This document shows, in pieces, positions 2,163-64,000 of a stretch of DNA of 64,000 nucleotides (position 1 is the first letter of the stretch; every line of letters starts with the position of its first letter). The translations under genes and the position numbers were made by a program. The DNA is taken from the IMG/VR virus record IMGVR_UViG_3300022218_000001, positions 7,179 through 71,178 of that record. The stretch is one strand, 5' to 3'. Source of the stretch: a virus (lineage: Duplodnaviria > Heunggongvirae > Uroviricota > Caudoviricetes). The notes beneath the pieces are model-generated. The model worked only from the letters and a program-made list of their open reading frames with translations. It searched no databases and was not told where the DNA came from.

Positions 2163-2911
2163 CCAGAGTCACCCATGAGCCGGTAGTAAAGGTCGACCGG
2201 TTCCAATGGCAGCCGCTCGCAATCATCGGTGCTGGGCCAAGTTATGATCGAGACCTTGTTCAAAGGCTCATGAGCGCCGGCAAAGAAGTGAATGTCTTCG
2301 CGCTAAATCACACCATCTGCGAGCTTTTCCGCCACCCTCGGCACTGGTGGGTTTCCAACGACCACGACCGGACATTCGGCAATGTAAACATCGCCAAAGG
2401 CATCAAACCCCGCATCGCTAAGTACGCCCCATGGCGGACAATCACTCAGCGACTCTTCATCCCAGGAAGTTTCGGTGACCACATCTGGTTTGATGGACAT
2501 GGGAAAAGACAAAATCCGTTAAAGTTCCGCCTCCCCTGCCCCGATGGAACCCATGTCGCCTGGTACCTCGGCGGTCATGAGCGCAATGTGCAGGCCTACG
2601 GCTATGTCCGTAACGGCCATTCCGTACTGGAGTTGGCGCTGGAGGTAGCCACACTCTGGGGCTTTGACCCCATCTTTCTTTTTGGTTGCGACCTTCATCT
2701 TGAGACCCCGGAGACCTACTACGCGGATCCATTCCGCTGGAAAGAGACCCCTGCGAAGATTGTCCGGGGTAAGCTTCCAATTTCTCGCCGGTCTATTGCG
2801 GACAACCGGTGGCGTTGGCCAGAGAACATTTTTCATGTCTCTTCTTACTGGAAAGACAGCCCTTTTGAGACTGTCAGCATGGCAGAGGCGATTTCAAGGC
2901 TTTGCTTGTAG
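2159..2911 (+). CDS. MptE/DUF115-like (Maf-type) protein
   Basis: N-terminal IIGAGPS glycine loop and central ALEVATLWGFDPIFLFGCDLH motif, shared with five other paralogs in this window. Confidence 0.45.
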   Translation: MTRVTHEPVVKVDRFQWQPLAIIGAGPSYDRDLVQRLMSAGKEVNVFALNHTICELFRHPRHWWVSNDHDRTFGNVNIAKGIKPRIAKYAPWRTITQRLFIPGSFGDHIWFDGHGKRQNPLKFRLPCPDGTHVAWYLGGHERNVQAYGYVRNGHSVLELALEVATLWGFDPIFLFGCDLHLETPETYYADPFRWKETPAKIVRGKLPISRRSIADNRWRWPENIFHVSSYWKDSPFETVSMAEAISRLCL

Positions 2912-32456: not shown

Positions 32457-32643
32457 CATGGGAGTTTTAGAGCGACTTCTCGGTGCAGTGGAGAACGGAC
32501 GTGGCGCCAGGCTTTCGAACTCAGATGTGCACGCTCTGTTGCGCTTCCTGGGATTTGCGATGCTGAAGAGCTACGGTCGGAATTGCTCCGAGACTGAACG
32601 TGTCATGGAGACTTGGATCGACTATCATCCCGTGCCGGCGTGA
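32443..32643 (+). CDS. hypothetical small protein
   Basis: ORF overlapping upstream stop. Confidence 0.3.
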   Translation: MGRNSMGVLERLLGAVENGRGARLSNSDVHALLRFLGFAMLKSYGRNCSETERVMETWIDYHPVPA

Positions 32644-32647
32644 GGCC

Positions 32648-32706
32648 GGCTCCCCGTTTCTCTTGGCTCCCTGGGCCTATGTTTTCCTGGGGAGCCGTTT
32701 TTTTTC
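32648..32706 (+). terminator. rho-independent terminator at convergent junction
   Basis: ggctcccc ... ggggagcc stem followed by T9. Confidence 0.6.
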
Positions 32707-32869
32707 TATAATTCTGTCCCCAAAAGCAGGCTCTCAGTGCGCAGTAGTAGAGGGGCTCCACTGGCAACCCTCTTTCCGGCTAACAGCCGAACCCACAAAA
32801 ACCCACTTTGTGAGCCCCTTGAAATTTGTGAGGTTTTAGGCCTTGAGCCCAAAACCTCACATTTTCTAT

Positions 32870-33766
32870 TTAGAGCAGGCCTGCCTCTTTGCACGACTTA
32901 CAGACAAATGGGAGCATCTGGTATTCTGCCCGGATCCAGTCTATTGCCCGGTGGGCCATCTTGGCTGCTTCGATGGGGTTCTCCAGGCACCAGACGATCT
33001 CCCGTATCATGGCTCTGTGGTTACCGATTTCGAACTCTCGGTACATGTGGGGGGCCAGCGGTGTCCAGTTCGTACGCTCAATGACCAAGGGGATGAGCTG
33101 GGGCGCTCCGAGCTGGACGATGCGGGTCGATGGCCAGTTGATACGGTCGCCGGTCCCGGAATGGACGTGAAGGAAGACCTTGGAGCGTAGACCTTCTGCG
33201 ATTTCGCCATCGGTGAGCTTCCGGTTGGTCCTGGGCTCAGCGTAGACATCGAACCCGTTGCGCTCCAGGGCGTTCACAGCACTCCAGCGCCGACTGCGCG
33301 AGCGGACCATGCCCAGAAAGCCTACGTCGTGCGTTGGGGTCTGCACAGGGCGGTCGTAGCTTGGGTGGTAGGCAAAAGGGCAGAAGGTTCGGCGGAAGCC
33401 GCGAGACTCGAATGTGGGGCCGTTCTGGGGGGCATAATCGAAAATCCAGTCCACCCTCTGGGCCTCCCAGCCCGCCCTTTTTCCGAATTTCCGCAATCTA
33501 TTGAACCAGGAGCGCCCGACTGTCTTGGTATAGACTTCGGATGTGTTGTAGAGGCAGACCGTTCCTGGCCATTTACCATGGACCTGGCTGGCTCCAGAGA
33601 CGCTCACTATAAAGAGGGTGTCTGTACGGTCGAGGCCCGTGATTGATGTCCCGCAGGTGACATCGGGGAAACCGAGCTGCCGGAAGCAATCAGCGAAGGC
33701 CTCTGCGACTTTATGCCCCTGCCAGGCGATAGCCCGGGGGCTGTAGAGTACGTGGATTGGTTTCAT
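32870..33766 (-). CDS. CgeB-like glycosyltransferase-like protein (paralog of 55813..56784)
   Basis: Shares DWIFDYAPQN, FCPFAYHPSYD and a C-terminal EAAKMAHRAIDWIRAEY-type block with the 55813 protein; glycosyltransferase assignment is tentative. Confidence 0.4.
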   Translation of the reverse strand: MKPIHVLYSPRAIAWQGHKVAEAFADCFRQLGFPDVTCGTSITGLDRTDTLFIVSVSGASQVHGKWPGTVCLYNTSEVYTKTVGRSWFNRLRKFGKRAGWEAQRVDWIFDYAPQNGPTFESRGFRRTFCPFAYHPSYDRPVQTPTHDVGFLGMVRSRSRRWSAVNALERNGFDVYAEPRTNRKLTDGEIAEGLRSKVFLHVHSGTGDRINWPSTRIVQLGAPQLIPLVIERTNWTPLAPHMYREFEIGNHRAMIREIVWCLENPIEAAKMAHRAIDWIRAEYQMLPFVCKSCKEAGLL

Positions 33767-34050
33767 GTAAGAAATAGGGCCTTTCCCCCTTTATTGGTTA
33801 GGTAGCACTCTGTCATGCAGCAGCGTTCTTTGCCGCGTTGAATGAGACCTTCTCGCTGAAGCTTTCCAAGAAACCCGCCTGCAGCAAAAGCCATCATCCC
33901 TCCCCGAGAGACACCCTTCGGCCCACATTTATGGCATCTATCGTGCCCGTCAGAGGTCGGCCACATCAACTCAGAGAATCGTGCAGGACGTATGCCTGGA
34001 CATCTTCTAATGATCATCAATGCGGTCCATTGAGCTTTTGTGATAATCAC
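33763..34050 (-). CDS. hypothetical small Cys-containing protein
   Basis: ATGA overlap in operon. Confidence 0.3.
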   Translation of the reverse strand: MIITKAQWTALMIIRRCPGIRPARFSELMWPTSDGHDRCHKCGPKGVSRGGMMAFAAGGFLGKLQREGLIQRGKERCCMTECYLTNKGGKALFLT

Positions 34051-34493
34051 CAGTGAAAGCCCTCCGGAATAATTGTGAACGAGTGGCCCGGGTCTATTGG
34101 ACGAAGCTCCCGGTACCAGAGCCGCTGCCTTGGTGCGGTGTGGCTTTCGCCAATATCTCGGAACCCGACCGATGCCCAGACGGCGTTCTCTTCGCGTCCG
34201 TTGAGGATCAGTCCATCAAGTTCTATTTCCGACAACTCCTTGGCGACTTCTTCCATCAAGAGCGAGCAGTACCCCTTCCCTCGCTCATTGGCAAGGGTTG
34301 TAATACCGCCAAGGCCCGCGACCTGCATGGTAGGCTCGTCGGGCCGCTTGAGTTTAAGGTCGAAGCAGTGAACGACAGAGACGAATTGGGTCTGGACCCA
34401 AAGTCCATAGACTGCATCCGGGTGGCGTGCCCACTTCCATTTGTGGAGATGGGCTACATTGCTTGGGGTCACAGGCTGCATGGTTGGTGGCAT
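34047..34493 (-). CDS. GNAT-family N-acetyltransferase
   Basis: ITTLANERGKGYCSLLMEEV acetyl-CoA binding (R/Q-x-x-G-x-G/A) motif. Confidence 0.55.
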   Translation of the reverse strand: MPPTMQPVTPSNVAHLHKWKWARHPDAVYGLWVQTQFVSVVHCFDLKLKRPDEPTMQVAGLGGITTLANERGKGYCSLLMEEVAKELSEIELDGLILNGREENAVWASVGFRDIGESHTAPRQRLWYRELRPIDPGHSFTIIPEGFHW

Positions 34494-35584
34494 GCAAACT
34501 CCTTTACGGCTTGAATGATTCGGCGACGGTCAGAAGGTGTCAGCCACCATCCGCAGGGGATGTTGACTTGACGACGTGAGAATTCATCGAGCCCCTTTGT
34601 TTTCTTGGCATCTGGGAATGCGGTCTTTTTGTCGTTTCGGCTATGAACCTCTGATGCATCAACCCCTCTCTTCGCGAGGTGAGCAATAAAGCCCTCTCGA
34701 TTCTCCACCAACATGGGGAATAACCAATACGAGCAGCCATCGTCGAATGGCAAGCAATGCACTCCGTTTTCAAGCTCAAGGAATGCATCACAGAAGTACT
34801 TGGCGTTTTCTTGTATCTGAGCAAGAAGCCCGGACATGCGCCGAAGGTTCGCAAGGCCGATCGACGCTGCCACATCGTTCATCCCGTACTTGTAGCCAGG
34901 CTCAACAATGTCTTGTCGGCAACGAAACGATGTGTTCTGGGTCCGATCGAGCCCGTACCAACGCAAGAGGAGTGCGCGTTCCCGGTTGACGCCAGGCACG
35001 GCCAGGGCTCCCCCGTCACCACCACAGTTGAGGTGTTTGATCGCTCCGAAGCTCCACATCCGGTAATGCCCCCAGCCTCGAGTCTTGAAGCTCCCAAGGC
35101 TGTGAGCCCCGTCTTGAATAACCGAGCAGCCATAGCTCAACTCGTCGGCTATTTCACGCAGTCGGACATAGTCACAGGTGCGGCCGGCCCAATCTACGGT
35201 GACGATGGCTCGAACGTTTCCATAGGAGTTGACCAGTTCTTCGACATGGTCTGCGTCGATAAGACCGCTCTCCGGGTCGACGTCAGCCCATACAATATTT
35301 GCGAAACGCTGAAGCAAAGGCACGTTAGTGGCTGTACAAGTCATCGGGGTCGAGATGACGGTCGAGCCTGGCTTGATTCCTGCGAGGTGGTACGCCAGGT
35401 CGAGCGCGTGGGTGCCTGTCATCGTTGCGAGGGGGACGGTATCGAGATCTTCGAAGCTCTGGAGGCCTTCTTCGAACTCTCTGACGCGCGGGCCTTGGCC
35501 TGTGTAGCCAGACATGAGCGTCTCTTCGACGCGCTTGATGGCGTCTGGGGCCATAAATACCTTGAAAAGTGGGATACGATCCAT
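34469..35584 (-). CDS. DegT/DnrJ/EryC1/StrS-family PLP-dependent sugar aminotransferase
   Basis: N-terminal MAPDAIKRVEETLMSGYTGQGPRVREFE and WSFGAIKHLNCGGDGGAL (PLP-lysine region); internal Met 35584 just below upstream stop. Confidence 0.8.
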   Translation of the reverse strand: MDRIPLFKVFMAPDAIKRVEETLMSGYTGQGPRVREFEEGLQSFEDLDTVPLATMTGTHALDLAYHLAGIKPGSTVISTPMTCTATNVPLLQRFANIVWADVDPESGLIDADHVEELVNSYGNVRAIVTVDWAGRTCDYVRLREIADELSYGCSVIQDGAHSLGSFKTRGWGHYRMWSFGAIKHLNCGGDGGALAVPGVNRERALLLRWYGLDRTQNTSFRCRQDIVEPGYKYGMNDVAASIGLANLRRMSGLLAQIQENAKYFCDAFLELENGVHCLPFDDGCSYWLFPMLVENREGFIAHLAKRGVDASEVHSRNDKKTAFPDAKKTKGLDEFSRRQVNIPCGWWLTPSDRRRIIQAVKEFACHQPCSL

Positions 35585-35588
35585 GCTT

Positions 35589-36224
35589 TCACTCCTTCTC
35601 TTTTGGGAACGGTGGGTCTTCCCAGCGGCTCGTGGGGTGGAGGAAGACCGTGCCGTCAATCAGGCCTCGAGCTGCGAACTCGTGGATGATCCTCCGATGG
35701 TCTGCCATCCGGTCTGGAGACGCTGGCCGCCAGTCAAATGGCGGCGCGTAGATTGTAGGCTCTCCGGGCGTTCTCTTAAAGTCTGCACCGGCTACGATTA
35801 TTTTCTCGAATGAACAGCGGCTCGCAATGAGGAGTGCTCGGCAGAAAGTACAGCCCTGCGGCCCAGGGAAGTTTGTCCCTTTGAAGCCAAAGAACTTCAC
35901 AGAGCGCCGGCGGATCAGCTCGTCGTTCTCGTGGTACGCAGCGTAGGAAATGACGCGCCATTTTGGATAAAGGGCGTCAAGCCGCTCTCGGAAGGACCTG
36001 TAGTTCTTCTTGTGAAGGAAGGAGTCAATGTGCCCCGCAACCCACATCGTCGAAGGCCGCCTGGCCCATTTCGGGATTTCGACGATGGCCGCATTTACCG
36101 CCCAGATTGTCCAATCCCGGTAGGGCTCGAAGTCTACATCTGCGAAACTCGGGCCACAGGAGGCGATGAGGAGCTTCTTGCCTCGTGATTTACCGTAGAG
36201 TCTCGATACGTCCCGCAGTGTCAT
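35589..36224 (-). CDS. MptE/DUF115-like (Maf-type) protein
   Basis: LLIASCGPSF glycine loop and FCRALLIASRCSFEKIIVAGADFK motif. Confidence 0.5.
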   Translation of the reverse strand: MTLRDVSRLYGKSRGKKLLIASCGPSFADVDFEPYRDWTIWAVNAAIVEIPKWARRPSTMWVAGHIDSFLHKKNYRSFRERLDALYPKWRVISYAAYHENDELIRRRSVKFFGFKGTNFPGPQGCTFCRALLIASRCSFEKIIVAGADFKRTPGEPTIYAPPFDWRPASPDRMADHRRIIHEFAARGLIDGTVFLHPTSRWEDPPFPKEKE

Positions 36225-36805
36225 TTCCAGTGCCTCAGTCCTGTCTTTACGATCGCCGATGCGCTTCGGATGAGCGCATCCGTTGCGTCCACCTCAAGCC
36301 ACGATGCCAGCTCGGCCACGACTTTGCCCGGGGTCTCGACGAGTTCATCGTAGCTGACGGCGAGCCCTGGGTACTGGGAGAAGAACCTGGCCACCTTCAT
36401 TTTGCAGCCATTGTACCGACGTGTGGCTCGGTCCCGAGCCCCTTTGTCCCCGCCCCTCTTCTTGACGAGGCTTTTCATTGTCGGCGCTTTCGGCCTTGTG
36501 GTCTCGATTGTGCGCCAGATATTCAGCCGATTGAGGCAGGGATAGAAGTGGCCCGTTGTGCCGTGGAACTTGAAGCCCGAGAGTCCCGGGCGATTGTGCT
36601 TTTCGACGAAGCGGTCAATGGCCAGGTTGTCTGGGCGTCGAAGCTCAAAGTTCATCTCCGGATCCATGAAGCTCCCGGTCGGCGTGCTCTTCGTCACCAG
36701 GCCACGATCGAACCTCACCCCAAGGTGGCTGACAATTGCAGCCACGACAGACGTCCCTGTTCTCGGTATCCCACAGACCACAACCACGCGGCTCTCCTCG
36801 CTCAT
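36221..36805 (-). CDS. sulfotransferase-like protein (PAPS-binding loop)
   Basis: VVVVCGIPRTGTSVVAAIV resembles 5'-PSB loop (PKSGTTW-type); KKRGGDKGARDRATRRY downstream; start at internal Met with ATGA overlap. Confidence 0.45.
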   Translation of the reverse strand: MSEESRVVVVCGIPRTGTSVVAAIVSHLGVRFDRGLVTKSTPTGSFMDPEMNFELRRPDNLAIDRFVEKHNRPGLSGFKFHGTTGHFYPCLNRLNIWRTIETTRPKAPTMKSLVKKRGGDKGARDRATRRYNGCKMKVARFFSQYPGLAVSYDELVETPGKVVAELASWLEVDATDALIRSASAIVKTGLRHWK

Positions 36806-37473
36806 GGCGTCCACCTCGGGAATGGAGCACCGCCGCGAATACGCGGCCAATCGCTCGTTGGGTGGAGACTGATGGCCCCGGAGAGAAGCCCCTGGCGTGC
36901 GTACTGAGCGATCCGGTCCCGTTGTTCCTTGAGGCGATACGGCACCGGAGCCTTCCACTCGAAGGGTGCCACGTAGTGTGGGGTTCCTCGCATGGGGGTG
37001 CCCTGGATGCGCTTTCGCTGCATGTCGGCGCCGGCAACGACGATCTGCGAGAAGCCCGAGCGCGATGCGGTGTGGAGGGCTCGGCAGAAGACTGAGCCCA
37101 TCGGCCCCGGATGCTCTGCCTGAGCGCCGTTGTAGAAGTAAGCCTCCTGCATTCGCCCCCGGAACCGGGGCATCCAGTACTCGTGGACGATTGCGCGCCA
37201 AACTGGGTAATTTTCGTCCACTCGTCGGCGAAACTCCCTCTGAAGGGGGTTGTCGTACACTGCATCGAGGTGGTTCGCGAACCAAAATGTACGGGGTGAG
37301 GCCAGCATCCATGCCGGCAGGGCGGTGATGGTGGCGTTGACGGCCCATACGTGCCAACCCCGGAACTGCTCCAGGTCGAGACGCGCGAAGCTGTGGCCAC
37401 AACAGAGGAGGGCCAGTCTTTCGGCACGGTACCGTCCGTAGAGCTTCTCTTCGATTCTTCCTTCCTTTTTCAT
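36802..37473 (-). CDS. MptE/DUF115-like (Maf-type) protein
   Basis: ALLCCGHSFARLDL loop and FCRALHTASRSGFSQIVVAGADMQ motif; first gene of minus-strand operon. Confidence 0.5.
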   Translation of the reverse strand: MKKEGRIEEKLYGRYRAERLALLCCGHSFARLDLEQFRGWHVWAVNATITALPAWMLASPRTFWFANHLDAVYDNPLQREFRRRVDENYPVWRAIVHEYWMPRFRGRMQEAYFYNGAQAEHPGPMGSVFCRALHTASRSGFSQIVVAGADMQRKRIQGTPMRGTPHYVAPFEWKAPVPYRLKEQRDRIAQYARQGLLSGAISLHPTSDWPRIRGGAPFPRWTP

Positions 37474-37569
37474 CCTTCTCCGTAGCCAGAAAAGAGACCC
37501 CCCTCTTTTATTTTTTTGATGGGGGGTGGGTCCTTTTCCAGGATCTCCGATTCTCAGTTTGAGGCAAGT

Positions 37570-38170
37570 CCGATTTGCTATGGACTTTTTCCGCGAGCGC
37601 GAGAGCCGATTTGCTATAGGCTTTTTCCGCGAGCGCGGAACTCCTCCAGTTGTGGGCTCGTCTTGCTGGCGAGCATGGCGTCCAGGGAGCTGAATGTTCT
37701 GGAGGCGTGCCAGGTTGCCCGATCGAATCTGCTCTCCACGGTTACGCAGAGCCCCCAGTCTGTGATTGCAACGACAATCCCCGCCGGCCCCCCGTTGCGA
37801 TGGAAGAGCTGCATTCCAATCTCAATCTCGATGCCGTCTGCTGTGCGTGGCGTGATTACGAGCATCTTCCCTTCGCTGTCAGTTTTCATCGATTCCTCTA
37901 TTCCCCGATTTGCTATAGACTTTTTCCGCGAGCGCGAAAGCCGATTTGCTATGGACTTTTCTCATGAGCGCGAGTTTGGGACCTGGGTGTCGTAGCCGAT
38001 GGCGGAAATGCCCGAGAGCCGATTTGCTATAGACTTTTTCCGCGAGCGCGAAAGCCGATTTGCTGTGGAATTTTGGCCAACGTAAAGTCAATTCCTTCAG
38101 AGGAAAACCGAAACCTATTTCGAGGCAAACCCGATTTGCTATAGGCATTTTCCGTAAGCGCGTGTTAGGG
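37570..38170. repeat. array of seven copies of a 36-bp direct repeat CCGATTTGCTATAGACTTTTTCCGCGAGCGCGAAAG
   Basis: Copies near 37570, 37606 (tandem), 37905, 37941 (tandem), 38019, 38055, 38130; partial dyad TTTCCGCG-A-GCGCGAAA inside unit. Confidence 0.85.
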
Positions 38171-39323: not shown

Positions 39324-39335
39324 GAGGGTTTTGCG

Positions 39336-55145: not shown

Positions 55146-55816
55146 GAGATGAAGAGATGGTGGATAAGGCTAAAGCGGAAGTCAACGCGCGGAGGCGTGC
55201 ACGCATCAGGGCACAGTCAGGAATCGTGGAGAAGGGGGAGGCTCCTCCGGCATCCGAGCTTGGAGAGTACAGTGAGAATTACATTTCCACTATAATTCCG
55301 GTGAAGGACTTCTCTCCGGCGAACAACTACAAAGCTCAGATGTGGGAGATCATCAAAGAGCACTTTGGAGACAAGGAGCCTGGCATCGCTGTCGAAGTTG
55401 GGGCAAAACGTGGGCACTGGGCGGCTGGCCTGCTTCAGGGCACGAAGAAGACGCAGCTCTTCTGCGTAGACCCATGGGCTGGTCGTCAGGGTCGCCAGAG
55501 CATGGCAGTGTGGTTCAAGCGGTGCGCTCCGCATGTTTTCACGCGATGCCATCCGCTGGTAGGGACATCGCTTGATTGGTCTCGATACTTCCCATACTTC
55601 GTAGATCTTCTTTTCGTCAATGGGCTCCACGATGCGAAGAGCGTGCAGCTCGACCTTCAACGGTGGGCTCCTCGCGTGAAGCCTGGGGGGCTAATCATCG
55701 GTCATGACTATAACGAGGCAGACATTAAGAAGGCTGTCGATGACTTTTTTCCAGATCTGACTGGCGTCCAGAAGCTTGGCCCGGGGGACGCTGTCTCTTT
55801 TTGGAAAGCTTTATGA
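55127..55816 (+). CDS. TylF/CmcI-like class I SAM methyltransferase (paralog 3)
   Basis: IAVEVGAKRGHWA; FVNGLHDAKSVQLDLQRWAPRVKPGGLIIGHDY. Confidence 0.6.
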   Translation: MQDQRLGDEEMVDKAKAEVNARRRARIRAQSGIVEKGEAPPASELGEYSENYISTIIPVKDFSPANNYKAQMWEIIKEHFGDKEPGIAVEVGAKRGHWAAGLLQGTKKTQLFCVDPWAGRQGRQSMAVWFKRCAPHVFTRCHPLVGTSLDWSRYFPYFVDLLFVNGLHDAKSVQLDLQRWAPRVKPGGLIIGHDYNEADIKKAVDDFFPDLTGVQKLGPGDAVSFWKAL

Positions 55817-56784
55817 GCAAGAGCTTCAAACGCATTGTCATTCCGATGCGCAGGGCGATGGTGCATTGGGGGAAAGATTTATTCGCTCTTGCGCTTGCGT
55901 CGTGCTTCAGGTCGCTCGGCTTTAAAGTCATCATGCCGGATGTTAGTGATGTTGGCCCCGGCGACTTCACGCGGAATGACTTTGTTCTTTTTGTAGACTG
56001 GGCATCCGCTCGATCTAAGTTTTCGAATGCGCTGGTGTATGCCCGTCGAAATAAAGCGACGACAGCTCATTACAACATGGAGCCTATAGCACCGGCTCCA
56101 TGGCTTCTTGACTCATTCAACTCAAGATCCAAGCGGTACCGAGAGAAGATTTCCGGCAAGTTTGATATAATCTTCGATTACAACCAAAACACAACAGACA
56201 TCTTGAAGGCGAGGGGGGAGAATGCATATCTTCTCCCAATGGGGTACCATGAAAGCTACGAGGTCGCGTGGCTTCCTCCGTTCGATGTTGGTGCGCATTG
56301 GCTCGGCCTCGAGTACCACCCACCTCCGAAGGGTGCTGAGTACGATCCAAGAATTCTTGACCGTAGGGGCGAGATTTGTAAAGCGATCCGGGAGGCCGGG
56401 GCTCCTTGCTCCAGCCATTTCTTCCGAGGGCTCCCAGGCCGCCTCGACCTAATGCGCAAGATGCTCTCCACCCCAGGTGTCCACCTCAATCTGCATCGCC
56501 CGGGGTCTCCATTTCAGTTCGGCGGAATCCGTGTTATTCAGCTCTTGATGTCAAATCGGAGATTCGTCCTTTCTGAGCCATGCTCTTGGTACCCAGAAGG
56601 GCTTACCCCGGGCGTTCATTGGGATGTTGCTGAGCCAGAACAAATCCCAGAGCATGTTTTGTATTGGCTGAAGAAGCCGATTAAGAGAGAGGCGGTCGCC
56701 AGGGCTGGGTATGAGTTCATTCGAGCCAACCACCGGCTCGATGTCTTTCTCAAGCAGGCTTTAATAGAAGCGGGAGTTATGTAA
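55813..56784 (+). CDS. CgeB-like glycosyltransferase-like protein (paralog of 32870..33766)
   Basis: ATGA overlap; shared blocks with minus-strand paralog; C-terminal KREAVARAGYEFIRANH resembles GT-B C-terminal helices. Confidence 0.4.
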   Translation: MSKSFKRIVIPMRRAMVHWGKDLFALALASCFRSLGFKVIMPDVSDVGPGDFTRNDFVLFVDWASARSKFSNALVYARRNKATTAHYNMEPIAPAPWLLDSFNSRSKRYREKISGKFDIIFDYNQNTTDILKARGENAYLLPMGYHESYEVAWLPPFDVGAHWLGLEYHPPPKGAEYDPRILDRRGEICKAIREAGAPCSSHFFRGLPGRLDLMRKMLSTPGVHLNLHRPGSPFQFGGIRVIQLLMSNRRFVLSEPCSWYPEGLTPGVHWDVAEPEQIPEHVLYWLKKPIKREAVARAGYEFIRANHRLDVFLKQALIEAGVM

Positions 56785-57172: not shown

Positions 57173-58099
57173 ATGCCTATCAAAAGAGAAGGCTCAAAGG
57201 AGCAGCGAAGGCGTGAGAAGGCAGAGCGCATCCGGGTGGCAATGGAGCGCAGAAAGGGTAAGCGCCCACCGCGCCCTCCTGAATCGGCTCTGGTAAAGGG
57301 TGCCAAGGGGAATGTCCATATGCGGCGCAGGGTGTCGCATTTTTGGGGTAAATATCCGGACTCTGATATTTTTGTCTGTGGGACAGGAACGAGTTTGGCC
57401 GGTTTCGACTGGACGCGGCTTGGAGGCCGAATTACCATAGGCCTTAATGACGCGCTCAAGATTCCCGGGTTTGCACCAGCGTTCTCACTCTTTAGCGATA
57501 TTGGAATTTGGAGCCGATATCGCAATCTGACGCTTGACAAACGAACAATGGTTGTATGCCAGGGCCGGTCACGCGATCAGTTTATGAAGTACGAGAAATG
57601 CAGCTTCAAAGATCAAGTCTGGCACTTCAACCAACAGGCCACTGCGAAGGCTTGCGACTCAAAGAACGACGATCTCTATTGCGCAAGAACGATCGCTTGC
57701 GCTGGCATCATGATGGCTTACAAGCTGGGTGCTCGACGTGTCTTTCTCTTGGGGGTGGACGGCTACAAGCTTTCCGGCAAGGACGGCGGCCAATATTACC
57801 ACGACGGATCTGGGAAGGGGCCAGAGCGCCGCAAAGAGCAGGGCGTCCCGGGAACTACTCAGGTGGTGCAAGACCGTCATGGCTGGTGGGAAACAAACAT
57901 GAAGGAGCTGCGAGACTGGTTCGACAGCCTGGGTGTGTACCAAGAGCCGTTCCGAAAGGGCCGTCACTTCGGGTCGAATGTCTTTACTCTTTCAGGGCTT
58001 TCTACAATACCGCAATGGGAAAAGGTGAAAGTGAAGACCGTTCTTGGGAGGGGGTGTTTTGATACTAAACACAGATCTGTCCGGCATGCTGGACAGTAG
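57173..58099 (+). CDS. MptE/DUF115-like (Maf-type) protein
   Basis: FVCGTGTSL loop; ACAGIMMAYKLGARRVFLLGVDGY motif. Confidence 0.5.
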   Translation: MPIKREGSKEQRRREKAERIRVAMERRKGKRPPRPPESALVKGAKGNVHMRRRVSHFWGKYPDSDIFVCGTGTSLAGFDWTRLGGRITIGLNDALKIPGFAPAFSLFSDIGIWSRYRNLTLDKRTMVVCQGRSRDQFMKYEKCSFKDQVWHFNQQATAKACDSKNDDLYCARTIACAGIMMAYKLGARRVFLLGVDGYKLSGKDGGQYYHDGSGKGPERRKEQGVPGTTQVVQDRHGWWETNMKELRDWFDSLGVYQEPFRKGRHFGSNVFTLSGLSTIPQWEKVKVKTVLGRGCFDTKHRSVRHAGQ

Positions 58100-58124: not shown

Positions 58125-58739
58125 TTGGAAGTTGCAGACCTTATTGGCAAAGTCAAGATACCGCAGTGCCATCCTTTAGAGCTTGCTCCATTTTTGCGTT
58201 CGGTGCTGTATCCGGTTCAGAACGGCATCCCAGGGGTGATGGTAGAAATCGGGACGAACAAGGGGAAGAGCCTGGCTTGTCTTCTACAGACATTAAATCT
58301 TCTTGGTCAGCGTCGAGAGGTTTTTTGTATCGATCCATTTGACAATGCGGCCCGGTTCTTCCCTTCCAGGGTTGAGAAGTTCGCTGGTGAAATTCCAGCG
58401 CAGCTCATTCGCTTGTCATCGCAAGACCCAGAGGCAGTTAAGCGGCTCAAAGGTTCCCCAATCGCATGGCTTCTCATCGACGGTTGCCATTGCTACGATT
58501 GTGTCCTGGCTGATATTGACAGATGGATTCCTGAAGTCATTTCTGGTGGTACGGTCGTTTTTCATGACTTTTGCCCTCGTTTCAATTATGGGAAGCGTGA
58601 TTTTTGTGCTGCGGCAGGCAGCAAACGCCGCTGGGGTGTTTGGCCAGCGTTCAAGATAGCCAAGGCCGCGCGGGCATTGGAGCAGGTCGAACAGAGCCCT
58701 CGCCGAACGCCCGGAATGGCCGTTTTTATGAAGGTTTAA
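58125..58739 (+). CDS. TylF/CmcI-like class I SAM methyltransferase (paralog 4)
   Basis: VMVEIGTNKGKS; LIDGCHCYDCVLADIDRWIPEVISGGTVVFHDF. Confidence 0.6.
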   Translation: MEVADLIGKVKIPQCHPLELAPFLRSVLYPVQNGIPGVMVEIGTNKGKSLACLLQTLNLLGQRREVFCIDPFDNAARFFPSRVEKFAGEIPAQLIRLSSQDPEAVKRLKGSPIAWLLIDGCHCYDCVLADIDRWIPEVISGGTVVFHDFCPRFNYGKRDFCAAAGSKRRWGVWPAFKIAKAARALEQVEQSPRRTPGMAVFMKV

Positions 58740-58741
58740 TC

Positions 58742-59821
58742 ATGGTAAAGGTAGCTCGCTTCGCAGGGGCAAGGCTCACAGGGATCAAAGCTCTTCAGGG
58801 TAAGCACAAAAGGGCAAGCGTTGCGGTGTGCGGCTCTGGTGTGACGTTGAATGATTTAGATCTTAGCAGGATCCCGGATCATTGGATCGTTGTTGCTGTG
58901 AACGAAGCAATCCGGAAGCTTGGTTCAAGGGCTGATTATTGGGTTCTGTCGGATGAGCCCATTGTGCGTGGCTACGCAAAACTCTGCCCGAGAGACGTCA
59001 CGATTCTCGCGATGCATCAAGCCACGATCTCAATCCCAGCCGTGTGCCCACATCACGAGTTCTATACCGTGAACTCAATTAACAAAATCGTGACACCAGA
59101 TGACGGCTTTAATTTCTTCAGTCGTGGTACGGTTTTGATCGGAGCTATCGAGATGCTTCGTTACACAGGGGCAAAGAGGTTCTATTGCTTCGGCCTTGAC
59201 TGTTATCGCACAGAAGAGGCGTACTACTATGATGGCCGCAAGCCGCCGATGGTCACAGAGCAGCGGTGCGATGATAGGGAGAGGGGGCAAGGCGTCCCCC
59301 CTGGAGTCCGTATTTATGTAACATCCAGGCTCCAAAACATGGTCAAAAAGCTCAATGAGCTTAGACGCGAAGGGCTATGGAACGAAGTGGAGATCTTCTG
59401 TGTGAATTCACCTTATTCACAGCAGACTGCGATTCCAAAAATCAGCCCGGAAGAGTTCAAGCAGCAGCGGCAAAGGAGCATCGATAATTTCAAGAGAAAG
59501 CGGAGGAGGAAACATGCAGAGGCACAGGCCGCCATTCAGGAAGGATCCCCGGCTGCCGGGACTGAAGAACCCGAAGTTTTTGACGACTCTGGGAGTGGGG
59601 GGGCAGCTTACGGCGACGGACAGGACGACGCTCTTGTGGTCACTGGAGCAGGTGGTGAAGCTATCGGATCCACCAGTGAGCCCGGAGGGGGACACCCCAC
59701 CGATGGGGGCCTTGAGGAAACCGGTCTTCGTGGAGATCGGGACTCACATGGCGGGGACAGCGATACTGACGATGAAGGCTCTCCAGGGTCTTCGGGCGAT
59801 GGCGATCTTCCGGACGATTGA
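58742..59821 (+). CDS. MptE/DUF115-like protein with long acidic Gly/Asp-rich C-terminal tail
   Basis: AVCGSGVTLNDL loop; LIGAIEMLRYTGAKRFYCFGLDCY; tail ...GSGGAAYGDGQDD...DSDTDDEGSPGSSGDGDLPDD. Confidence 0.5.
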   Translation: MVKVARFAGARLTGIKALQGKHKRASVAVCGSGVTLNDLDLSRIPDHWIVVAVNEAIRKLGSRADYWVLSDEPIVRGYAKLCPRDVTILAMHQATISIPAVCPHHEFYTVNSINKIVTPDDGFNFFSRGTVLIGAIEMLRYTGAKRFYCFGLDCYRTEEAYYYDGRKPPMVTEQRCDDRERGQGVPPGVRIYVTSRLQNMVKKLNELRREGLWNEVEIFCVNSPYSQQTAIPKISPEEFKQQRQRSIDNFKRKRRRKHAEAQAAIQEGSPAAGTEEPEVFDDSGSGGAAYGDGQDDALVVTGAGGEAIGSTSEPGGGHPTDGGLEETGLRGDRDSHGGDSDTDDEGSPGSSGDGDLPDD

Positions 59822-61956: not shown

Positions 61957-62645
61957 GTTCGCAAGAAATTGACGCTATCCACAAGCGGGCAAGAAGGCGA
62001 CCGCTTGGCGTATGCGTGCATGAGAAGTTTGGGCATGTTGTTGGAATTCCTCCAGGCCTTCGAGGGTTCAAGGATCCAATCTTCAGTCTCATGCCAGGCA
62101 GCGTGCATGTCGCTGTCGAGATTGGGACATGCCAAGGTTGGTTCGCGTACCGAATGGCAAAATTCCTGCCAGAGACAGCTCGTATTTTTTGCGTCGATCC
62201 TTTCTATGACGATGAGGGTGAAGGGTATGATGGGGAATACAACCTCTCTTGCTGGAAAAAGAATGTCAGGGAGTGGTTTGGAAGAAGAATTTTTCTCAAG
62301 CGTGGGGAAAGTTTCCATGAAGCGGAAAAGTGGGGCAACGGTGTACCTGTTGATTTTCTATTTATCGATGGTGATCATCGGTTCGAAGCTGTGCTCCTCG
62401 ATCTTGAAGGCTGGGTTCCAAAAGTGCGTCCTGGAGGGTTAATTGCAGGCCACGACATTGATGGGAAGTGGGGAGCTAACATCAAGAAAGCGTTGGAGAA
62501 TTACTGTGCAAAGGCTGGTATTGAGCAGGTGCACACAGGGAAAGCTTACAGTTTTACAGGAAAGCAAGTCACTCCATGCTGGTGGTTCTACAAACCGGTG
62601 CCGAAGGAAGCAGGGGGTGACGCAGTTTGGCGTTGGGAAAAATAA
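61929..62645 (+). CDS. TylF/CmcI-like class I SAM methyltransferase (paralog 7)
   Basis: VAVEIGTCQGWFA; FIDGDHRFEAVLLDLEGWVPKVRPGGLIAGHDI. Confidence 0.6.
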   Translation: MEGEKDMGLSSQEIDAIHKRARRRPLGVCVHEKFGHVVGIPPGLRGFKDPIFSLMPGSVHVAVEIGTCQGWFAYRMAKFLPETARIFCVDPFYDDEGEGYDGEYNLSCWKKNVREWFGRRIFLKRGESFHEAEKWGNGVPVDFLFIDGDHRFEAVLLDLEGWVPKVRPGGLIAGHDIDGKWGANIKKALENYCAKAGIEQVHTGKAYSFTGKQVTPCWWFYKPVPKEAGGDAVWRWEK

Positions 62646-62649
62646 GCCG

Positions 62650-63276
62650 ATGGAATTATCGCTTGAGAAAATTGCAGTTTGGAAGGATGCCTATAAGGGG
62701 GAGACAGCATGGATCCTTGGAAGCGGACCGTCCCTTGATGAGCTGCCCCCAGAGAAGGTTGGGCCGCATCGCTTTGCGTTGAATCTTACAATCCTCATTG
62801 AGGCCTATCGGGATTCTTGGTGGATATGTCGTGACGGCAGGGCAATGAAAAAATGGCTTTACTCTAATAGGTCGTCATGTATTGGGGAGGATCGCCGATA
62901 CGCAGATACCCTGTTCACGGATCACGCCGGCACACGGAGGGTGACGGAACTCGACATTGGGCCAGAGAAGCTGCGACGAATTGTATGCACGGGGCAGCGA
63001 TTCTACACAGGGGAGACGATCCTTGTTCTGGCTCTTCAGATAGCGGACTACATGGGCTTTTCTGAGATTGTTCTTGCTGGTGTAGATCTTCTGGATCCGG
63101 GAGGGGTTGCTTATGCGAAGGAGATCAACTGGCAATCGACATTTACGGCTGCCGCCAGGCCTGCGCGCTACAACCGGATGCGTAGAGACGTGGCCAGGCT
63201 GTCTACAGCAATGAATGCGAAGGTGTGGACTGTGTCACCTCATCTTGCTGATATCTTTGAGGAGATAAAGCTGTGA
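62650..63276 (+). CDS. MptE/DUF115-like (Maf-type) protein
   Basis: AWILGSGPSLDEL loop; TILVLALQIADYMGFSEIVLAGVDLL. Confidence 0.5.
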   Translation: MELSLEKIAVWKDAYKGETAWILGSGPSLDELPPEKVGPHRFALNLTILIEAYRDSWWICRDGRAMKKWLYSNRSSCIGEDRRYADTLFTDHAGTRRVTELDIGPEKLRRIVCTGQRFYTGETILVLALQIADYMGFSEIVLAGVDLLDPGGVAYAKEINWQSTFTAAARPARYNRMRRDVARLSTAMNAKVWTVSPHLADIFEEIKL

Positions 63277-64000
63277 AGCGTGATCGGCGTGTGAAGTATC
63301 CGTTGAGCACTTTTATCTCACATCCAAGAAGTGGCCTGACGTGGTTCCGTTTTATGTTCCATGAGATTAGAAAGCGGCATGATCCTGACAATCTTATGCC
63401 TCCACCGAAAAACACAGAAGAGCTGAATCCCCTTATCCTGTTCGATCATGACAACATGGGCACTATTGGTTCGATACTCCGGTTGAACAAAAGAAGGAAG
63501 CCAGAAAGGTGGGTGGGGCGTAAGGTTATTTTCCTCGCAAGAGATCCGAGGGATACGCTTCTCTCTAATTACCACATGCTTTCTGGCAGAGCGCAGCATC
63601 GTTCAGGTGTCAAGAGTCGTCTTGGCAAGACTGTGAAGTCCATGGATGCATTTTTCAGATCCAGGGCATTTGGGATTAAGCGTTATGTCGGCTGGGCTCG
63701 CTGGTGGGATACGCACAAGGGCTCGTGTAAAGACTTCATGCCAATTTACTACGAGGACACCCTTGAAAATCCGTTCTCTTCTTTGAGCTGCGCTCTCGAG
63801 TTTGCAACAGACGAGAACGTCCCGGCTAGCATCATGGAAGCGGCGGTGAGAGCTTCGTCTTTTGGAAAGATGAAACAGCGTGAAATCGATAACGGGCGTC
63901 TTTTCTCAGATCAGCAAGCAGCGGTCAACAATGATCCGCGCTGCCGGATAGTTCGAAAGGGCAAGGCTGGAGCTTGGCGCGATGAGCTTCCTGAAGAGTT
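63273..64000 (+). CDS. sulfotransferase (PAPS-dependent), 3' partial at window edge
   Basis: My own translation from GTG 63273 (GTGA overlap; ORF not in the supplied track): ISHPRSGLTWFRF (5'-PSB), KVIFLARDPRDTL (3'-PB RDPRD), IVRKGKAGAWRDEL C-terminal motif. Confidence 0.75.
   Translation, partial: MKRDRRVKYPLSTFISHPRSGLTWFRFMFHEIRKRHDPDNLMPPPKNTEELNPLILFDHDNMGTIGSILRLNKRRKPERWVGRKVIFLARDPRDTLLSNYHMLSGRAQHRSGVKSRLGKTVKSMDAFFRSRAFGIKRYVGWARWWDTHKGSCKDFMPIYYEDTLENPFSSLSCALEFATDENVPASIMEAAVRASSFGKMKQREIDNGRLFSDQQAAVNNDPRCRIVRKGKAGAWRDELPEE

What the first reader, a model, noticed from the sequence alone, without database searches (positions are those of the whole stretch)
32870..37473. Second, minus-strand sugar-modification operon mirroring the late island
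Seven tightly overlapped minus-strand genes: two MptE-like proteins, a sulfotransferase-like protein (PRTGTS P-loop), a DegT PLP aminotransferase, a GNAT acetyltransferase, a small Cys protein, and a CgeB-like protein that is a clear paralog of the 55813..56784 product. It is the only long minus-strand unit in the window. It points to biosynthesis of an N-acetylated amino-sugar by the DegT and GNAT pair, which would feed the transferases. Finding the same three families (MptE-like, sulfotransferase, CgeB-like) on both sides of the morphogenesis module suggests one split pathway, or a duplicated and diverged one.
Basis: partly seen in the sequence, partly recalled or inferred. Interest (0 to 1): 0.75.

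Follow-up and report, generated by a model that had tools for sequence, protein, structure and literature searches.

The report
Phage sugar-modification operon with mini-Maf enzymes
A roughly 108-kb uncultured phage carries a conserved reverse-strand operon for an amino-sugar step plus three sugar-transferase-like enzymes, and together with sialic-acid-type genes next to the capsid gene it suggests a bacterial flagellin-style glycosylation system that has not been described in phages.

Summary
Window 32870-37473 carries a compact minus-strand operon, the only one in the window. Six of its seven ORFs are real genes. Five of them have orthologues in the same order in related metagenomic phages (56-80% identity, dN/dS 0.10-0.24).

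Family calls were checked:
- A true sulfotransferase fold.
- A DegT aminotransferase (E 2e-52) and a GNAT.
- A CgeB-like protein that aligns end to end with 55813-56784.

- The small "Cys protein" is doubtful.
- The sulfotransferase is present only in this phage; relatives carry other genes in that slot.
- The two sulfotransferases share a superfamily but show no pairwise similarity.
- The operon complements the late island rather than mirroring it.

Just past the window end the island also encodes a NeuB-type synthase, a PseF-like CMP-transferase and a seventh Maf-like protein.

Best reading: one split pathway that builds a nonulosonic-acid-containing, methylated and sulfated glycan, probably attached to virion proteins. 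The acceptor and the exact sugar are inferred, not shown. No isolated phage in 50,697 records has a relative of the operon's Maf-like or CgeB-like genes.

The parts
36802..37473 (-). m1: first gene of the operon, a 223-aa MptE/Maf-like mini-enzyme (catalytic core only)
36221..36805 (-). m2: compact 194-aa PAPS-type sulfotransferase, present only in this phage
   Evidence: Direct Pfam gives Sulfotransfer_1 at 21.3 bits (cut-off 22), N-terminus only. An exhaustive HMMER search finds 47 homologues, and 43 of 44 hit Sulfotransfer_3. The AF2 model has pLDDT 91.9. Foldseek hits 1-32 are all sulfotransferases. In L002 the slot holds a 64-aa ORF, and in L006 three unrelated ORFs.
35589..36224 (-). m3: second MptE/Maf-like mini-enzyme, 211 aa, paralogue of m1
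   Evidence: BLASTP to m1 gives E 1e-48. Pfam MptE-like scores 13.8 bits on the GxD motif region. Orthologues are 79-80% identical with dN/dS 0.10.
34469..35584 (-). m4: DegT/DnrJ/EryC1-family PLP sugar aminotransferase, 371 aa
   Evidence: Pfam PF01041 E 2.1e-52 over the full length. The best NCBIfam models are PseC (137 bits) and LegC (113 bits), both far below their cut-offs. The best PDB matches are 4zwv/4xau (204 bits) and CalS13 (174 bits), then ArnB (about 90 bits) and PseC 2fn6 (63 bits). The SFGAIK motif is readable in the translation. Orthologues are 64-67% identical.
34047..34493 (-). m5: GNAT acetyltransferase, 148 aa
   Evidence: Pfam Acetyltransf_9 E 2.1e-8, 34.7 bits against a cut-off of 25. 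There is no NCBIfam hit, including PseH, and no PDB sequence match. Orthologues are 46-53% identical with dN/dS 0.18-0.24.
33763..34050 (-). m6: doubtful small ORF (95 aa at most; the gene caller takes 33763-33894, 43 aa)
   Evidence: It is absent in L002. Only the C-terminal 44 aa are conserved in L006 (55% identity, E 1e-10). It lacks the codon-position GC pattern. It has no family hit.
32870..33766 (-). m7: last gene, a CgeB-like (Glyco_trans_1_2) putative glycosyltransferase, 298 aa
   Evidence: BLASTP to 55801-56784 gives E 8e-10 and 22% identity over 315 aa, with an end-to-end collinear alignment. The paralogue reaches Pfam PF13524 at 29.2 bits (cut-off 25). m7 itself scores 12.4 bits on the same region, and 5 of 6 family members hit. 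Orthologues are 56-72% identical.
37570..38164 (.). Array of 7 copies of a roughly 32-nt direct repeat (CCGATTTGCTATRGACTTTTTCCGCGAGCGCG) in the 1.1-kb intergenic region upstream of the operon. It is a candidate operator/promoter or iteron array.
   Evidence: (6 matches against 0 expected). The same core, in the same position and orientation, occurs upstream of the m1 orthologue in L002 and L006. It occurs nowhere else in about 93 kb of this genome.
32830..32862 (-). Perfect 10-bp stem hairpin (GTGAGGTTTT...AAAACCTCAC) starting 8 nt after the m7 stop codon. It is the likely end of the operon transcript.
   Evidence: Read directly from the sequence. It has no strong U tract on the minus strand.
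32664..32705 (+). Intrinsic-terminator-like hairpin followed by a T9 run, closing the converging plus-strand genes
55801..56784 (+). Late-island CgeB-like paralogue of m7 (gene call 55813-56784)
57173..58099 (+). Late-island MptE-like paralogue
   Evidence: Pfam MptE-like E 3e-4. tblastn to CcrColossus gp126, annotated 'sialyltransferase-like'.
58604..59821 (+). Late-island MptE-like paralogue with an acidic C-terminal tail
   Evidence: The gene call gives 359 aa.
62443..63276 (+). Late-island MptE-like paralogue, the only one above Pfam's gathering score
   Evidence: PF01973 at 34.7 bits against a cut-off of 34.6. The gene call gives 208 aa.
2159..2911 (+). MptE-like paralogue in the replication module; within the window it is the closest relative of m1/m3
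   Evidence: BLASTP to m1 gives E 2e-4. The A1 profile gives E 1.9e-9. Pfam scores 26.9 bits.
63273..64000 (+). Second sulfotransferase, cut by the window end (the full gene is 264 aa, running to position 64067)
   Evidence: Pfam Sulfotransfer_1 E 4.5e-15. The HPRSGLTW, RDPRD...S and YYEDTLENP motifs are visible. It has no significant similarity to m2.

Best explanation
The operon is the separately transcribed half of a single phage-encoded glycan pathway.

Shown:
- It encodes a sugar aminotransferase (DegT), a GNAT acetyltransferase, two Maf/MptE-fold mini-enzymes and a CgeB-like GT. In this phage only, it also encodes a sulfotransferase.
- The five core genes are conserved in order and under purifying selection in related phages.
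- The same genome carries a roughly 20-kb island that starts right after the major capsid gene. The island holds five more Maf-like genes, a second CgeB-like gene, a second sulfotransferase, about a dozen methyltransferases, a GHMP sugar kinase, a HAD phosphatase, a nucleotidyltransferase, a NeuB-family synthase and a PseF-like cytidylyltransferase.

Inferred:
- DegT aminates a nucleotide-linked 4-keto sugar and the GNAT acetylates the new amine.
- The acetamido sugar either feeds the NeuB/CMP-transferase steps, giving a pseudaminic/legionaminic-type nonulosonic acid, or serves as a second donor.
- The mini-Maf enzymes and CgeB-like enzymes transfer these sugars. By analogy with Maf, the transfer is onto Ser/Thr of a protein, most likely a virion protein given the island's position.
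- The sulfotransferases and methyltransferases then decorate the glycan.
- The opposite orientation, together with the operon's own conserved upstream repeat array, points to separate regulation.
For: Gene reality and conservation.

DegT and GNAT. The best NCBIfam models for DegT are PseC and LegC, the two nonulosonic-acid pathway aminotransferases.

Maf proteins are flagellin nonulosonic-acid O-glycosyltransferases, and their PF01973 domain is GT42-like (bioRxiv 10.1101/2020.06.03.131540).

Complementarity: DegT and GNAT occur only in the operon. NeuB (E 9e-48), the CTP_transf_3/PseF-like gene (79 bits), the kinase, the phosphatase, the NTP-transferase and the methyltransferases occur only in the island.

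The island begins 145 nt after the P22-type coat gene 50957-51901.

Sulfotransferase.

Own regulatory region.
Against: - No acceptor protein was identified, and no structural protein in the window is conspicuously Ser/Thr-rich.
- No 4,6-dehydratase (PseB/LegB/RmlB type) and no PseG/NeuC-type hydrolase were seen in the roughly 81 kb inspected. The keto-sugar substrate must therefore come from the host or from the 27.6 kb I could not read.
- By PDB sequence comparison DegT is much closer to 4zwv/4xau and CalS13 (204 and 174 bits) and to ArnB (about 90 bits) than to PseC 2fn6 (63 bits). This fits a 4-amino-pentose or 4-amino-6-deoxyhexose better than a Pse precursor.
- The GNAT matches no PseH model.
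- The mini-Maf proteins lack the N- and C-terminal domains of true Maf (211-223 aa against 632 aa), and their fold is shared with pyrophosphokinases.
- All equivalog-level scores are far below their cut-offs.
- Expression timing is unknown.
Confidence: 0.5

Rival explanations
1. Independent second glycan. The operon is self-contained and does not feed the NeuB branch. DegT plus GNAT make a 4-acetamido-4-deoxy-pentose or a 4-acetamido-4,6-dideoxyhexose nucleotide from a host keto-sugar. The operon's own three transferases then add this sugar to the same acceptor or a different one.
For: The best solved relatives of DegT are 4zwv/4xau and CalS13 (204 and 174 bits), then ArnB, while PseC scores 63 bits. 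From memory, 4zwv/4xau are AtmS13, and AtmS13 and CalS13 act in aminopentose pathways. There is no PseH-type match for the GNAT. The operon has its own transferases and its own regulatory region.
Against: The NCBIfam profile ranking puts PseC and LegC first. A genome with NeuB, a PseF-like enzyme and seven Maf-like genes needs an aminotransferase and an N-acetyltransferase for any di-N-acyl nonulosonic acid, and no others were seen.
Confidence: 0.28
2. The target is the host, not the virion. The enzymes remodel a host surface structure (flagellin, pilin, S-layer or polysaccharide) during infection, for example to block superinfection or to change motility.
For: All characterised Maf enzymes act on flagellins. 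The operon sits outside the structural module, next to early and middle genes, and has its own regulation.
Against: The larger part of the pathway lies directly after the coat gene, in the late plus-strand block. The mini-Maf proteins lack the flanking domains of flagellin-specific Maf. An investment of about 25 kb is large for a transient host modification (inference).
Confidence: 0.14
3. The MptE-like proteins are pyrophosphokinases or another nucleotide-binding enzyme rather than glycosyltransferases, so the operon serves a small-molecule or nucleic-acid modification pathway.
Against: The best structural match, and the longest alignment, is to Maf, followed by the GT29 and GT42 sialyltransferases. 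The genomic company is NeuB, a CMP-transferase and CgeB-like GTs. CcrColossus gp126, a homologue at 97.4% hhalign probability, sits between tail genes and glycosyltransferases.
Confidence: 0.07
4. The minus-strand ORFs are non-coding shadows of plus-strand sequence.
For: Long plus-strand ORFs overlap the region, for example 34757-35689 and 36185-36907.
Against: There are domain hits at E 2e-52. Orthologues are conserved with dN/dS 0.10-0.24. Independent gene calls agree. Two AF2 models are confident.
Confidence: 0.01

Closest known systems
Maf (motility accessory factor) flagellin nonulosonic-acid glycosyltransferases and bacterial flagellin glycosylation islands (Campylobacter, Aeromonas, Magnetospirillum, Geobacillus, Clostridium)
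   Same: - The genes co-occur with NeuB-type synthase, CMP-transferase, DegT aminotransferase and N-acetyltransferase genes.
- There are multiple Maf paralogues in one genome. From memory, C. jejuni has maf1-7.
   Different: - The genes are phage-encoded.
- The proteins are 208-359 aa cores without Maf's N- and C-terminal domains.
- No flagellin gene was seen.
- The set is accompanied by two sulfotransferases, about a dozen methyltransferases and CgeB-like GTs.
- No dehydratase or PseG was found.
- Direct Pfam scores for m1 and m3 are below threshold.
Caulobacter jumbo phages CcrColossus gp126 / CcrPW 'alpha-2,3-sialyltransferase-like protein'
   Same: It is a small (216 aa) MptE-like protein in a phage. 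hhalign to this phage's family gives 97.4%, E 1.2e-11. It lies next to structural (tail) genes and other glycosyltransferases.
   Different: It is a single copy. There is no DegT/GNAT/NeuB context in the 16 kb inspected. Identity is only 23-29%. Its function is annotated only, and no paper on it was found.
Mycobacteriophage virion glycosylation (Freeman et al. 2023, Cell Host Microbe; cited in PMC12619734; details from memory)
   Same: Phage-encoded glycosyltransferases and methyltransferases are placed with structural genes and modify capsid and tail proteins. This is the proposed destination here.
   Different: As I recall, those systems use ordinary GT-A/GT-B enzymes and hexoses. They have no Maf-like, NeuB, CMP-transferase, DegT or sulfotransferase genes. 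Glycosylation here is not demonstrated.
Pseudaminic / legionaminic acid biosynthesis (PseB-C-H-G-I-F; LegB-C-H-G-I-F)
   Same: PseC/LegC-like aminotransferase, GNAT, NeuB/PseI-like synthase and PseF-like cytidylyltransferase genes are present in one genome.
   Different: PseB/LegB and PseG/LegG were not found. Every score is far below its equivalog cut-off. The DegT is closer to CalS13- and ArnB-type enzymes in the PDB comparison.
Giant-virus (Mimivirus) fibril glycosylation clusters (from memory)
   Same: They are virus-encoded DegT-type aminotransferase and N-acetyltransferase genes that make acetamido sugars for glycans on the virion surface.
   Different: They occur in a eukaryotic virus, have no Maf-like enzymes and use different sugars (viosamine, bacillosamine, rhamnosamine).

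Membership tests
MptE-like / Maf_flag10 (Pfam PF01973) | Match to the Pfam model above the gathering score (34.6 bits) | tested here: not met
   m1 has no hit and m3 scores 13.8 bits. Only paralogue 62443-63276 reaches 34.7 bits.
MptE-like / Maf_flag10 (Pfam PF01973) | Remote homology to accepted members | tested here: met
   hhalign of the m1/m3 family against the four other paralogues gives 95.9%, E 5.8e-9. The A2 profile hits m1 at E 3.3e-7 and m3 at E 1.9e-5.
MptE-like / Maf_flag10 (Pfam PF01973) | Modified GT-A / Rossmann-like fold of the Maf central domain | tested here: met
   [not shown]
Maf flagellin glycosyltransferase (full-length) | Three-domain architecture of about 600 aa with flanking domains around the PF01973 core | tested here: not met
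   m1 is 223 aa and m3 is 211 aa, while 5mu5 is 632 aa.
Maf flagellin glycosylation system | A flagellin acceptor gene alongside the maf genes | tested here: not met
   No flagellin family appears among the Pfam results or the precomputed Pfam tables for the genes inspected. 27.6 kb of the genome were not read.
Maf flagellin glycosyltransferase (full-length) | Catalytic residues: conserved Ser of the domain and the equivalents of Asp324 and Glu415 of M. magneticum Maf | tested here: inconclusive
   The GxG(P/H)S serine (S28) is nearly invariant, and the GxD aspartate (D150) is invariant in all six window paralogues. Residue-by-residue mapping to 5mu5 was not done.
Maf flagellin glycosyltransferase (full-length) | CMP-nonulosonic-acid-dependent O-glycosylation of Ser/Thr | not testable with these tools
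   This needs enzymology or mass spectrometry.
PAPS-dependent sulfotransferase | Pfam Sulfotransfer_1/_3 match above the gathering score | tested here: not met
   m2 scores 21.3 bits against 22 and 18.7 bits against 27, on the N-terminal 30 residues only.
PAPS-dependent sulfotransferase | Homologues belong to the family | tested here: met
   There are 47 homologues, and 43 of 44 hit Sulfotransfer_3, best E 4.7e-15.
PAPS-dependent sulfotransferase | Sulfotransferase fold | tested here: met
   The model has pLDDT 91.9. Foldseek ranks 1-32 are all sulfotransferases: 4gox, TPST 3ap3/5wrj, StaL and Teg12.
PAPS-dependent sulfotransferase | 5'-PSB loop and 3'-PB Arg/Ser motifs | tested here: met
   GIPRTGTS is present at residues 12-19. 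G12, R15, G17 and S19 are nearly invariant, and R104 is invariant across 44 homologues. The interpretation of these motifs is from established knowledge.
DegT/DnrJ/EryC1/StrS aminotransferase | Full-length Pfam PF01041 match | tested here: met
   E 2.1e-52, residues 14-360 against model positions 6-359 of 360.
DegT/DnrJ/EryC1/StrS aminotransferase | PLP-binding lysine motif (SxxxxK) | tested here: met
   WSFGAIKHL is readable in the translation and conserved in both orthologues. The motif assignment is from established knowledge.
PseC (UDP-4-amino-4,6-dideoxy-AltNAc transaminase) equivalog | NCBIfam TIGR03588 score above 423.5 bits | tested here: not met
   137 bits. PDB PseC 2fn6 scores only 63 bits, against 204 bits for 4zwv.
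GNAT acetyltransferase | Pfam GNAT-clan match above the gathering score | tested here: met
   Acetyltransf_9 scores 34.7 bits against a cut-off of 25.
PseH (Pse pathway N-acetyltransferase) | Match to an NCBIfam PseH model | tested here: not met
   There is no NCBIfam hit at E<=0.01.
CgeB-like Glyco_trans_1_2 (PF13524) | Pfam match above the gathering score (25 bits) | tested here: not met
   m7 scores 12.4 bits, E 0.15, on residues 194-283.
CgeB-like Glyco_trans_1_2 (PF13524) | Homology to a member that passes the threshold | tested here: met
   Paralogue 55801-56784 scores 29.2 bits. m7 against the paralogue gives E 8e-10 and is collinear. 5 of 6 family members hit PF13524.
CgeB-like Glyco_trans_1_2 (PF13524) | GT-B fold | not tested
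The PDB profile search found nothing.
Complete nonulosonic-acid pathway (Pse/Leg type) | 4,6-dehydratase and NDP-sugar hydrolase/2-epimerase steps | tested here: not met
   None was seen in the window, L007 or L008.
Complete nonulosonic-acid pathway (Pse/Leg type) | NeuB-family synthase and CMP-transferase | tested here: met
   Both lie outside the window. L007 18511-19368 is NeuB, E 9e-48. L007 17253-17975 is CTP_transf_3, E 7.6e-17, with PseF as the best model at 79 bits.
Phage virion glycosylation system | Glycan covalently attached to virion proteins | not testable with these tools
   Only the gene position is available: the island starts right after the coat gene.

The most novel reading that the evidence does not exclude
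This phage lineage decorates its own virion proteins with a sialic-acid-like (nonulosonic) sugar. It does so with a family of seven stripped-down Maf enzymes that lost the flagellin-binding domains and were retargeted to phage proteins. The glycan is further O-methylated and sulfated, and the minus-strand operon supplies the diacetamido precursor and two of the transferases. That would be the first Maf-type protein O-glycosylation outside flagella and the first nonulosonic-acid-coated phage.
Probability: 0.3. Interest if true: 0.85.

Novelty: new variant of a known kind. Interest (0 to 1): 0.68.

Why it matters
Known virion glycosylation in phages involves ordinary glycosyltransferases in actinophages. 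Maf enzymes are known only as flagellin-specific nonulosonic-acid transferases.

This phage devotes about 25 kb, close to a quarter of its genome, to a Maf/NeuB/CMP-transferase/DegT/GNAT/sulfotransferase/methyltransferase set. That makes a concrete question testable: do some phages coat themselves with sialic-acid-like, sulfated sugars, for example to mimic a surface, evade adsorption traps or stabilise the capsid?

The 210-220-aa Maf cores would also be the smallest natural versions of this glycosyltransferase fold, which is useful for defining what determines acceptor choice.

In 50,697 deposited phage genomes:
- No relative of the operon's Maf-like or CgeB-like genes exists.
- NeuB occurs in only two uncultured records.

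Tried and rejected
- Megablast of the region against phage genomes found no match.
- PHROGs recognised only the DegT gene.
- Pattern-based searches for m1 relatives in IMG/VR, with a single sequence and with an alignment, and in GTDB genomes found nothing. No host could be inferred.
- Sequence and profile searches of PDB gave only spurious hits for m2, for the m1/m3 family and for the m7 family (pantothenate kinase, TPR repeats, thiolase). The fold searches were needed instead.
- The word-indexed protein search found m2 to be an orphan. The exhaustive HMMER search was needed to find its family.
- I looked for a second sulfotransferase with the m2-family profile. There is none in the window or flanks. 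The second one belongs to a different subfamily and is cut by the window end.
- I looked for a Ser/Thr-rich candidate acceptor among the window proteins and found nothing convincing.
- Rfam finds nothing in 32000-39500, and the window has no tRNAs.
- Literature searches for phage-encoded Maf/MptE-like proteins, and for nonulosonic acid in phages, found no relevant paper. The Freeman et al. paper is not held.
- I considered DNA hypermodification as the purpose and rejected it as the main reading. NeuB, the CMP-transferase, the Maf-like genes and the CgeB-like genes form a glycoconjugate signature, not a nucleobase-modification one (inference).

Full report
**Source and context**

The window is part of a metagenomic phage genome. 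The same sequence is held as an ENA contig of 108,612 bp and a JGI contig of 108,753 bp. Coordinates of three fetched loci show that the ENA contig is a circular permutation of about 108,471 bp, broken inside gene m1 (my arithmetic).

The coat protein is P22-type (Pfam E 2e-25). It is only about 33% identical to those of Gordonia and Streptomyces phages. Nothing in 50,697 deposited phage genomes matches the region at the DNA level.

**Observation**

The seven minus-strand ORFs exist at the stated coordinates. Their junctions are 4-nt overlap, 4-nt overlap, 4-nt gap, 25-nt overlap, 4-nt overlap and 4-nt overlap.

An independent gene call on the ENA contig gives the same genes, including the ATG start of DegT at 35584, but it calls only 43 aa for the small ORF.

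Two related phage contigs carry the same opposite-strand block in the same genomic position: L002 (104.5 kb) and L006 (25 kb). Shorter contigs L003-L005 carry it too. The order is MptE-like 1, a variable slot, MptE-like 2, DegT, GNAT, a variable small ORF, then CgeB-like.

| Gene | Identity to window protein in L002/L006 |
|---|---|
| m1 | 75-78% |
| m3 | 79-80% |
| m4 | 64-67% |
| m5 | 46-53% |
| m7 | 56-57% |

dN/dS is 0.10-0.24 with pS of 0.60-0.76. Codon-position GC follows the plus-strand genes. Coding is therefore not in doubt for these five genes.

The sulfotransferase gene m2 has no counterpart in the relatives, but it has the same codon-position GC pattern and a confident fold.

The 95-aa ORF m6 is doubtful:
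- It has no GC3 signal.
- It is absent from L002.
- Only its last 44 residues are conserved in L006 (E 1e-10).

The other long minus ORF in the window (21564-22082) overlaps two more plausible plus-strand ORFs. All gene calls on L001, L007 and L008 outside the operon are on the window's plus strand. The operon is therefore the only minus-strand unit in the window.

**What the genes are**

*m4* is a full-length DegT/DnrJ/EryC1 aminotransferase (E 2.1e-52), with the SFGAIK lysine motif.

*m5* is a GNAT (Acetyltransf_9, 34.7 bits).

*m1 and m3* are paralogues (40% identity, E 1e-48).
- Direct Pfam evidence is absent or weak.
- Their family profile aligns with the four other MptE-like ORFs of the window at 95.9% hhalign probability. 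One of those ORFs passes Pfam's threshold.
  - thiamin pyrophosphokinases.
- Foldseek ranks human sialyltransferases first.
- They are therefore Maf/MptE-fold proteins reduced to the catalytic core: 211-223 aa against 632 aa for Maf.

*m2* needed the exhaustive HMMER search, because the word-indexed search found only itself.
- 47 homologues were found, and 43 of 44 hit Sulfotransfer_3.
- The model has pLDDT 91.9.
- The first 32 Foldseek PDB hits are all PAPS sulfotransferases.
- The PRTGTS loop and an invariant Arg104 are present.

*m7* aligns end to end with 55801-56784 (E 8e-10). That paralogue passes Pfam Glyco_trans_1_2, the CgeB family (29.2 bits). m7 itself gives a sub-threshold hit on the same segment.

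**Surroundings**

The late island starts 145 nt after the coat gene. Within the window it holds:
- one class I methyltransferase and seven Methyltransf_24 O-methyltransferase-type genes;
- an NTP-transferase;
- the CgeB-like paralogue;
- a small HAD phosphatase;
- three MptE-like genes;
- a GHMP kinase whose best model is the heptose-7-phosphate kinase HddA.

The window cuts the island. Fetching the flank (L007) shows that it continues for at least 8 kb more, with:
- a second sulfotransferase (window 63273-64067; Sulfotransfer_1 E 4.5e-15);
- a seventh MptE-like gene, which is the closest outside relative of m1/m3 (A1 profile E 7e-13);
- four more methyltransferases;
- a cytidylyltransferase whose best model is PseF (79 bits);
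- a NeuB-family synthase (E 9e-48; NeuB 156 bits, PseI 132 bits).

No DegT, GNAT or sugar dehydratase was seen in the island.

**How it most likely works**

The two blocks are complementary rather than redundant. The operon has the only amination and N-acetylation enzymes. The island has the only condensation (NeuB), CMP-activation, phosphorylation and methylation enzymes.

The shared families (Maf-like, CgeB-like, sulfotransferase) are deeply diverged between the blocks: 22-25% identity, or none detectable. They look like specialised transferases, not a recent duplication.

Maf proteins transfer CMP-activated nonulosonic acids to Ser/Thr of flagellins. Their PF01973 domain is GT42-like (bioRxiv 10.1101/2020.06.03.131540).

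I therefore read the genome as encoding a nonulosonic-acid-containing glycan that is methylated and sulfated. The operon contributes an acetamido-sugar step plus three transferases. Because the island follows the coat gene, a virion protein is the most likely acceptor.

All of this beyond the family and fold assignments is inference.

**What weakens it**

- The acceptor is unknown.
- The 4,6-dehydratase and the NDP-sugar hydrolase of Pse/Leg pathways were not found, and 27.6 kb of the genome were out of reach.
- NCBIfam ranks PseC and LegC first for m4, but far below their cut-offs.
- In the PDB comparison m4 is much closer to 4zwv/4xau and CalS13 (204 and 174 bits) and to ArnB than to PseC (63 bits).
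  - From memory, 4zwv/4xau are AtmS13, and AtmS13 and CalS13 are aminopentose-pathway enzymes.
  - The DegT/GNAT pair may therefore make a separate 4-acetamido sugar (rival 1).
- The MptE fold is also that of pyrophosphokinases (rival 3).
- The target could be a host structure (rival 2).

The family calls and the paralogy of the MptE-like and CgeB-like pairs are right. 'Six MptE-like' is correct for the window, with a seventh just outside it.

BLASTP gives E 0.21, with only the YxxLxxxP motif aligned, although each member independently belongs to the superfamily.

The sulfotransferase and the small ORF occupy slots that vary between relatives. In L002 the slot holds a 64-aa ORF. In L006 it holds three unrelated ORFs.

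**Comparison with the known**

The nearest functional analogue is the bacterial flagellin glycosylation island. The nearest phage precedent is CcrColossus gp126 and its CcrPW homologue. gp126 is a 216-aa protein annotated 'alpha-2,3-sialyltransferase-like'. It lies between tail genes and other glycosyltransferases and is homologous at 97.4% hhalign probability. I found no paper on it.

In the deposited phage records:
- m1 and m7 have no relatives.
- NeuB occurs in only two uncultured records.

Literature searches found nothing on phage-encoded Maf-like proteins. I rate this as a new variant of a known kind.

**Regulatory anatomy**

The 1.1-kb intergenic region upstream of m1 holds seven same-orientation copies of a roughly 32-nt repeat, often in pairs 36 nt apart.
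- The same core sits in the same place and orientation in L002 and L006.
- It occurs nowhere else in about 93 kb of this genome.
- It may be an operator/promoter array for the operon or an iteron-type origin. I did not resolve this.

A perfect 10-bp hairpin follows the m7 stop codon. A hairpin followed by a T9 terminator closes the converging plus-strand genes. A GGAG Shine-Dalgarno sequence precedes m1. No Rfam family matches.

Noticed in passing
window 37570-38164; L002 9693-9989; L006 762-1072: Seven same-orientation copies of a roughly 32-nt repeat (core GATTTGCTATRGRC) fill the intergenic region upstream of the operon. The element is conserved in position and orientation in two related phages and absent elsewhere in about 93 kb of this genome. 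It could be an operator/promoter array or a replication-origin iteron set.
   Followed up: partly
window 17356-17616 (+); L002 10672-10866; window coat gene 50957-51901: Two small ORFs carry a roughly 30-aa copy of the coat protein's N-terminal segment (PEIWA..L.VLR.NLVMA.LVHRDFE). The match is 72% identity with E 1e-10 for the L002 ORF, which sits in the operon's variable slot, and 58% identity with E 3e-9 for the window ORF. The window ORF begins with a twin-arginine-like signal (MNRRSFLK). The purpose is unknown.
   Followed up: partly
L007 11944-20496 (equivalent to window 63273-71825, beyond the window end): The late island continues past the window. It holds a second sulfotransferase, a seventh MptE-like gene, four more methyltransferases, a PseF-like cytidylyltransferase, a NeuB-family synthase, and two unannotated proteins of 327 and 341 aa.
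   Followed up: yes
window 58604-59821: This MptE-like paralogue ends in a tail of about 100 aa that is rich in Asp, Glu and Gly and looks disordered. The tail is absent from the other paralogues.
   Followed up: no
window 2159-2911: One MptE-like paralogue sits far from the glycan genes, in the replication block next to a VRR_NUC nuclease, an SNF2 helicase, a Prim-Pol and a UvrD helicase. Within the window it is the closest relative of m1/m3.
   Followed up: partly
window 53827-55816, 58125-58739, 59514-60287, 61330-62645: There are seven paralogous Methyltransf_24 genes (sugar/macrolide O-methyltransferase type) in one island. This is an unusual number for a phage.
   Followed up: partly
window 56787-57143, 60318-61340, 53006-53830: A GHMP kinase (best model HddA, the heptose-7-phosphate kinase), a 118-aa HAD phosphatase and an NTP-transferase form a kinase-phosphatase-nucleotidyltransferase trio. 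The trio resembles the GDP-heptose activation route.
   Followed up: no
window 31575-32456: An SPFH/Band-7 family protein (E 1.9e-24) is the last sizeable plus-strand gene converging on the operon.
   Followed up: no
window 10760-11887 and 44837-46132: There are two DNA methyltransferases: MT-A70 family, and N6_N4_Mtase immediately upstream of the terminase.
   Followed up: no
L009 (Caulobacter phage CcrColossus 98832-99482): gp126, annotated 'alpha-2,3-sialyltransferase-like', is a 216-aa homologue of this phage's MptE-like family (hhalign 97.4%). It lies between tail genes and two other glycosyltransferases.
   Followed up: partly
L002 9565-9706: A GC-rich simple repeat, (GCGCATGC)n-like, lies next to the conserved 32-nt repeats in the relative. 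It is absent from the window.
   Followed up: no
window 37083: The ENA assembly of this phage breaks inside m1. Its ends overlap by the assembler k-mer (141 nt), which implies a circular or terminally redundant genome of about 108.5 kb.
   Followed up: partly
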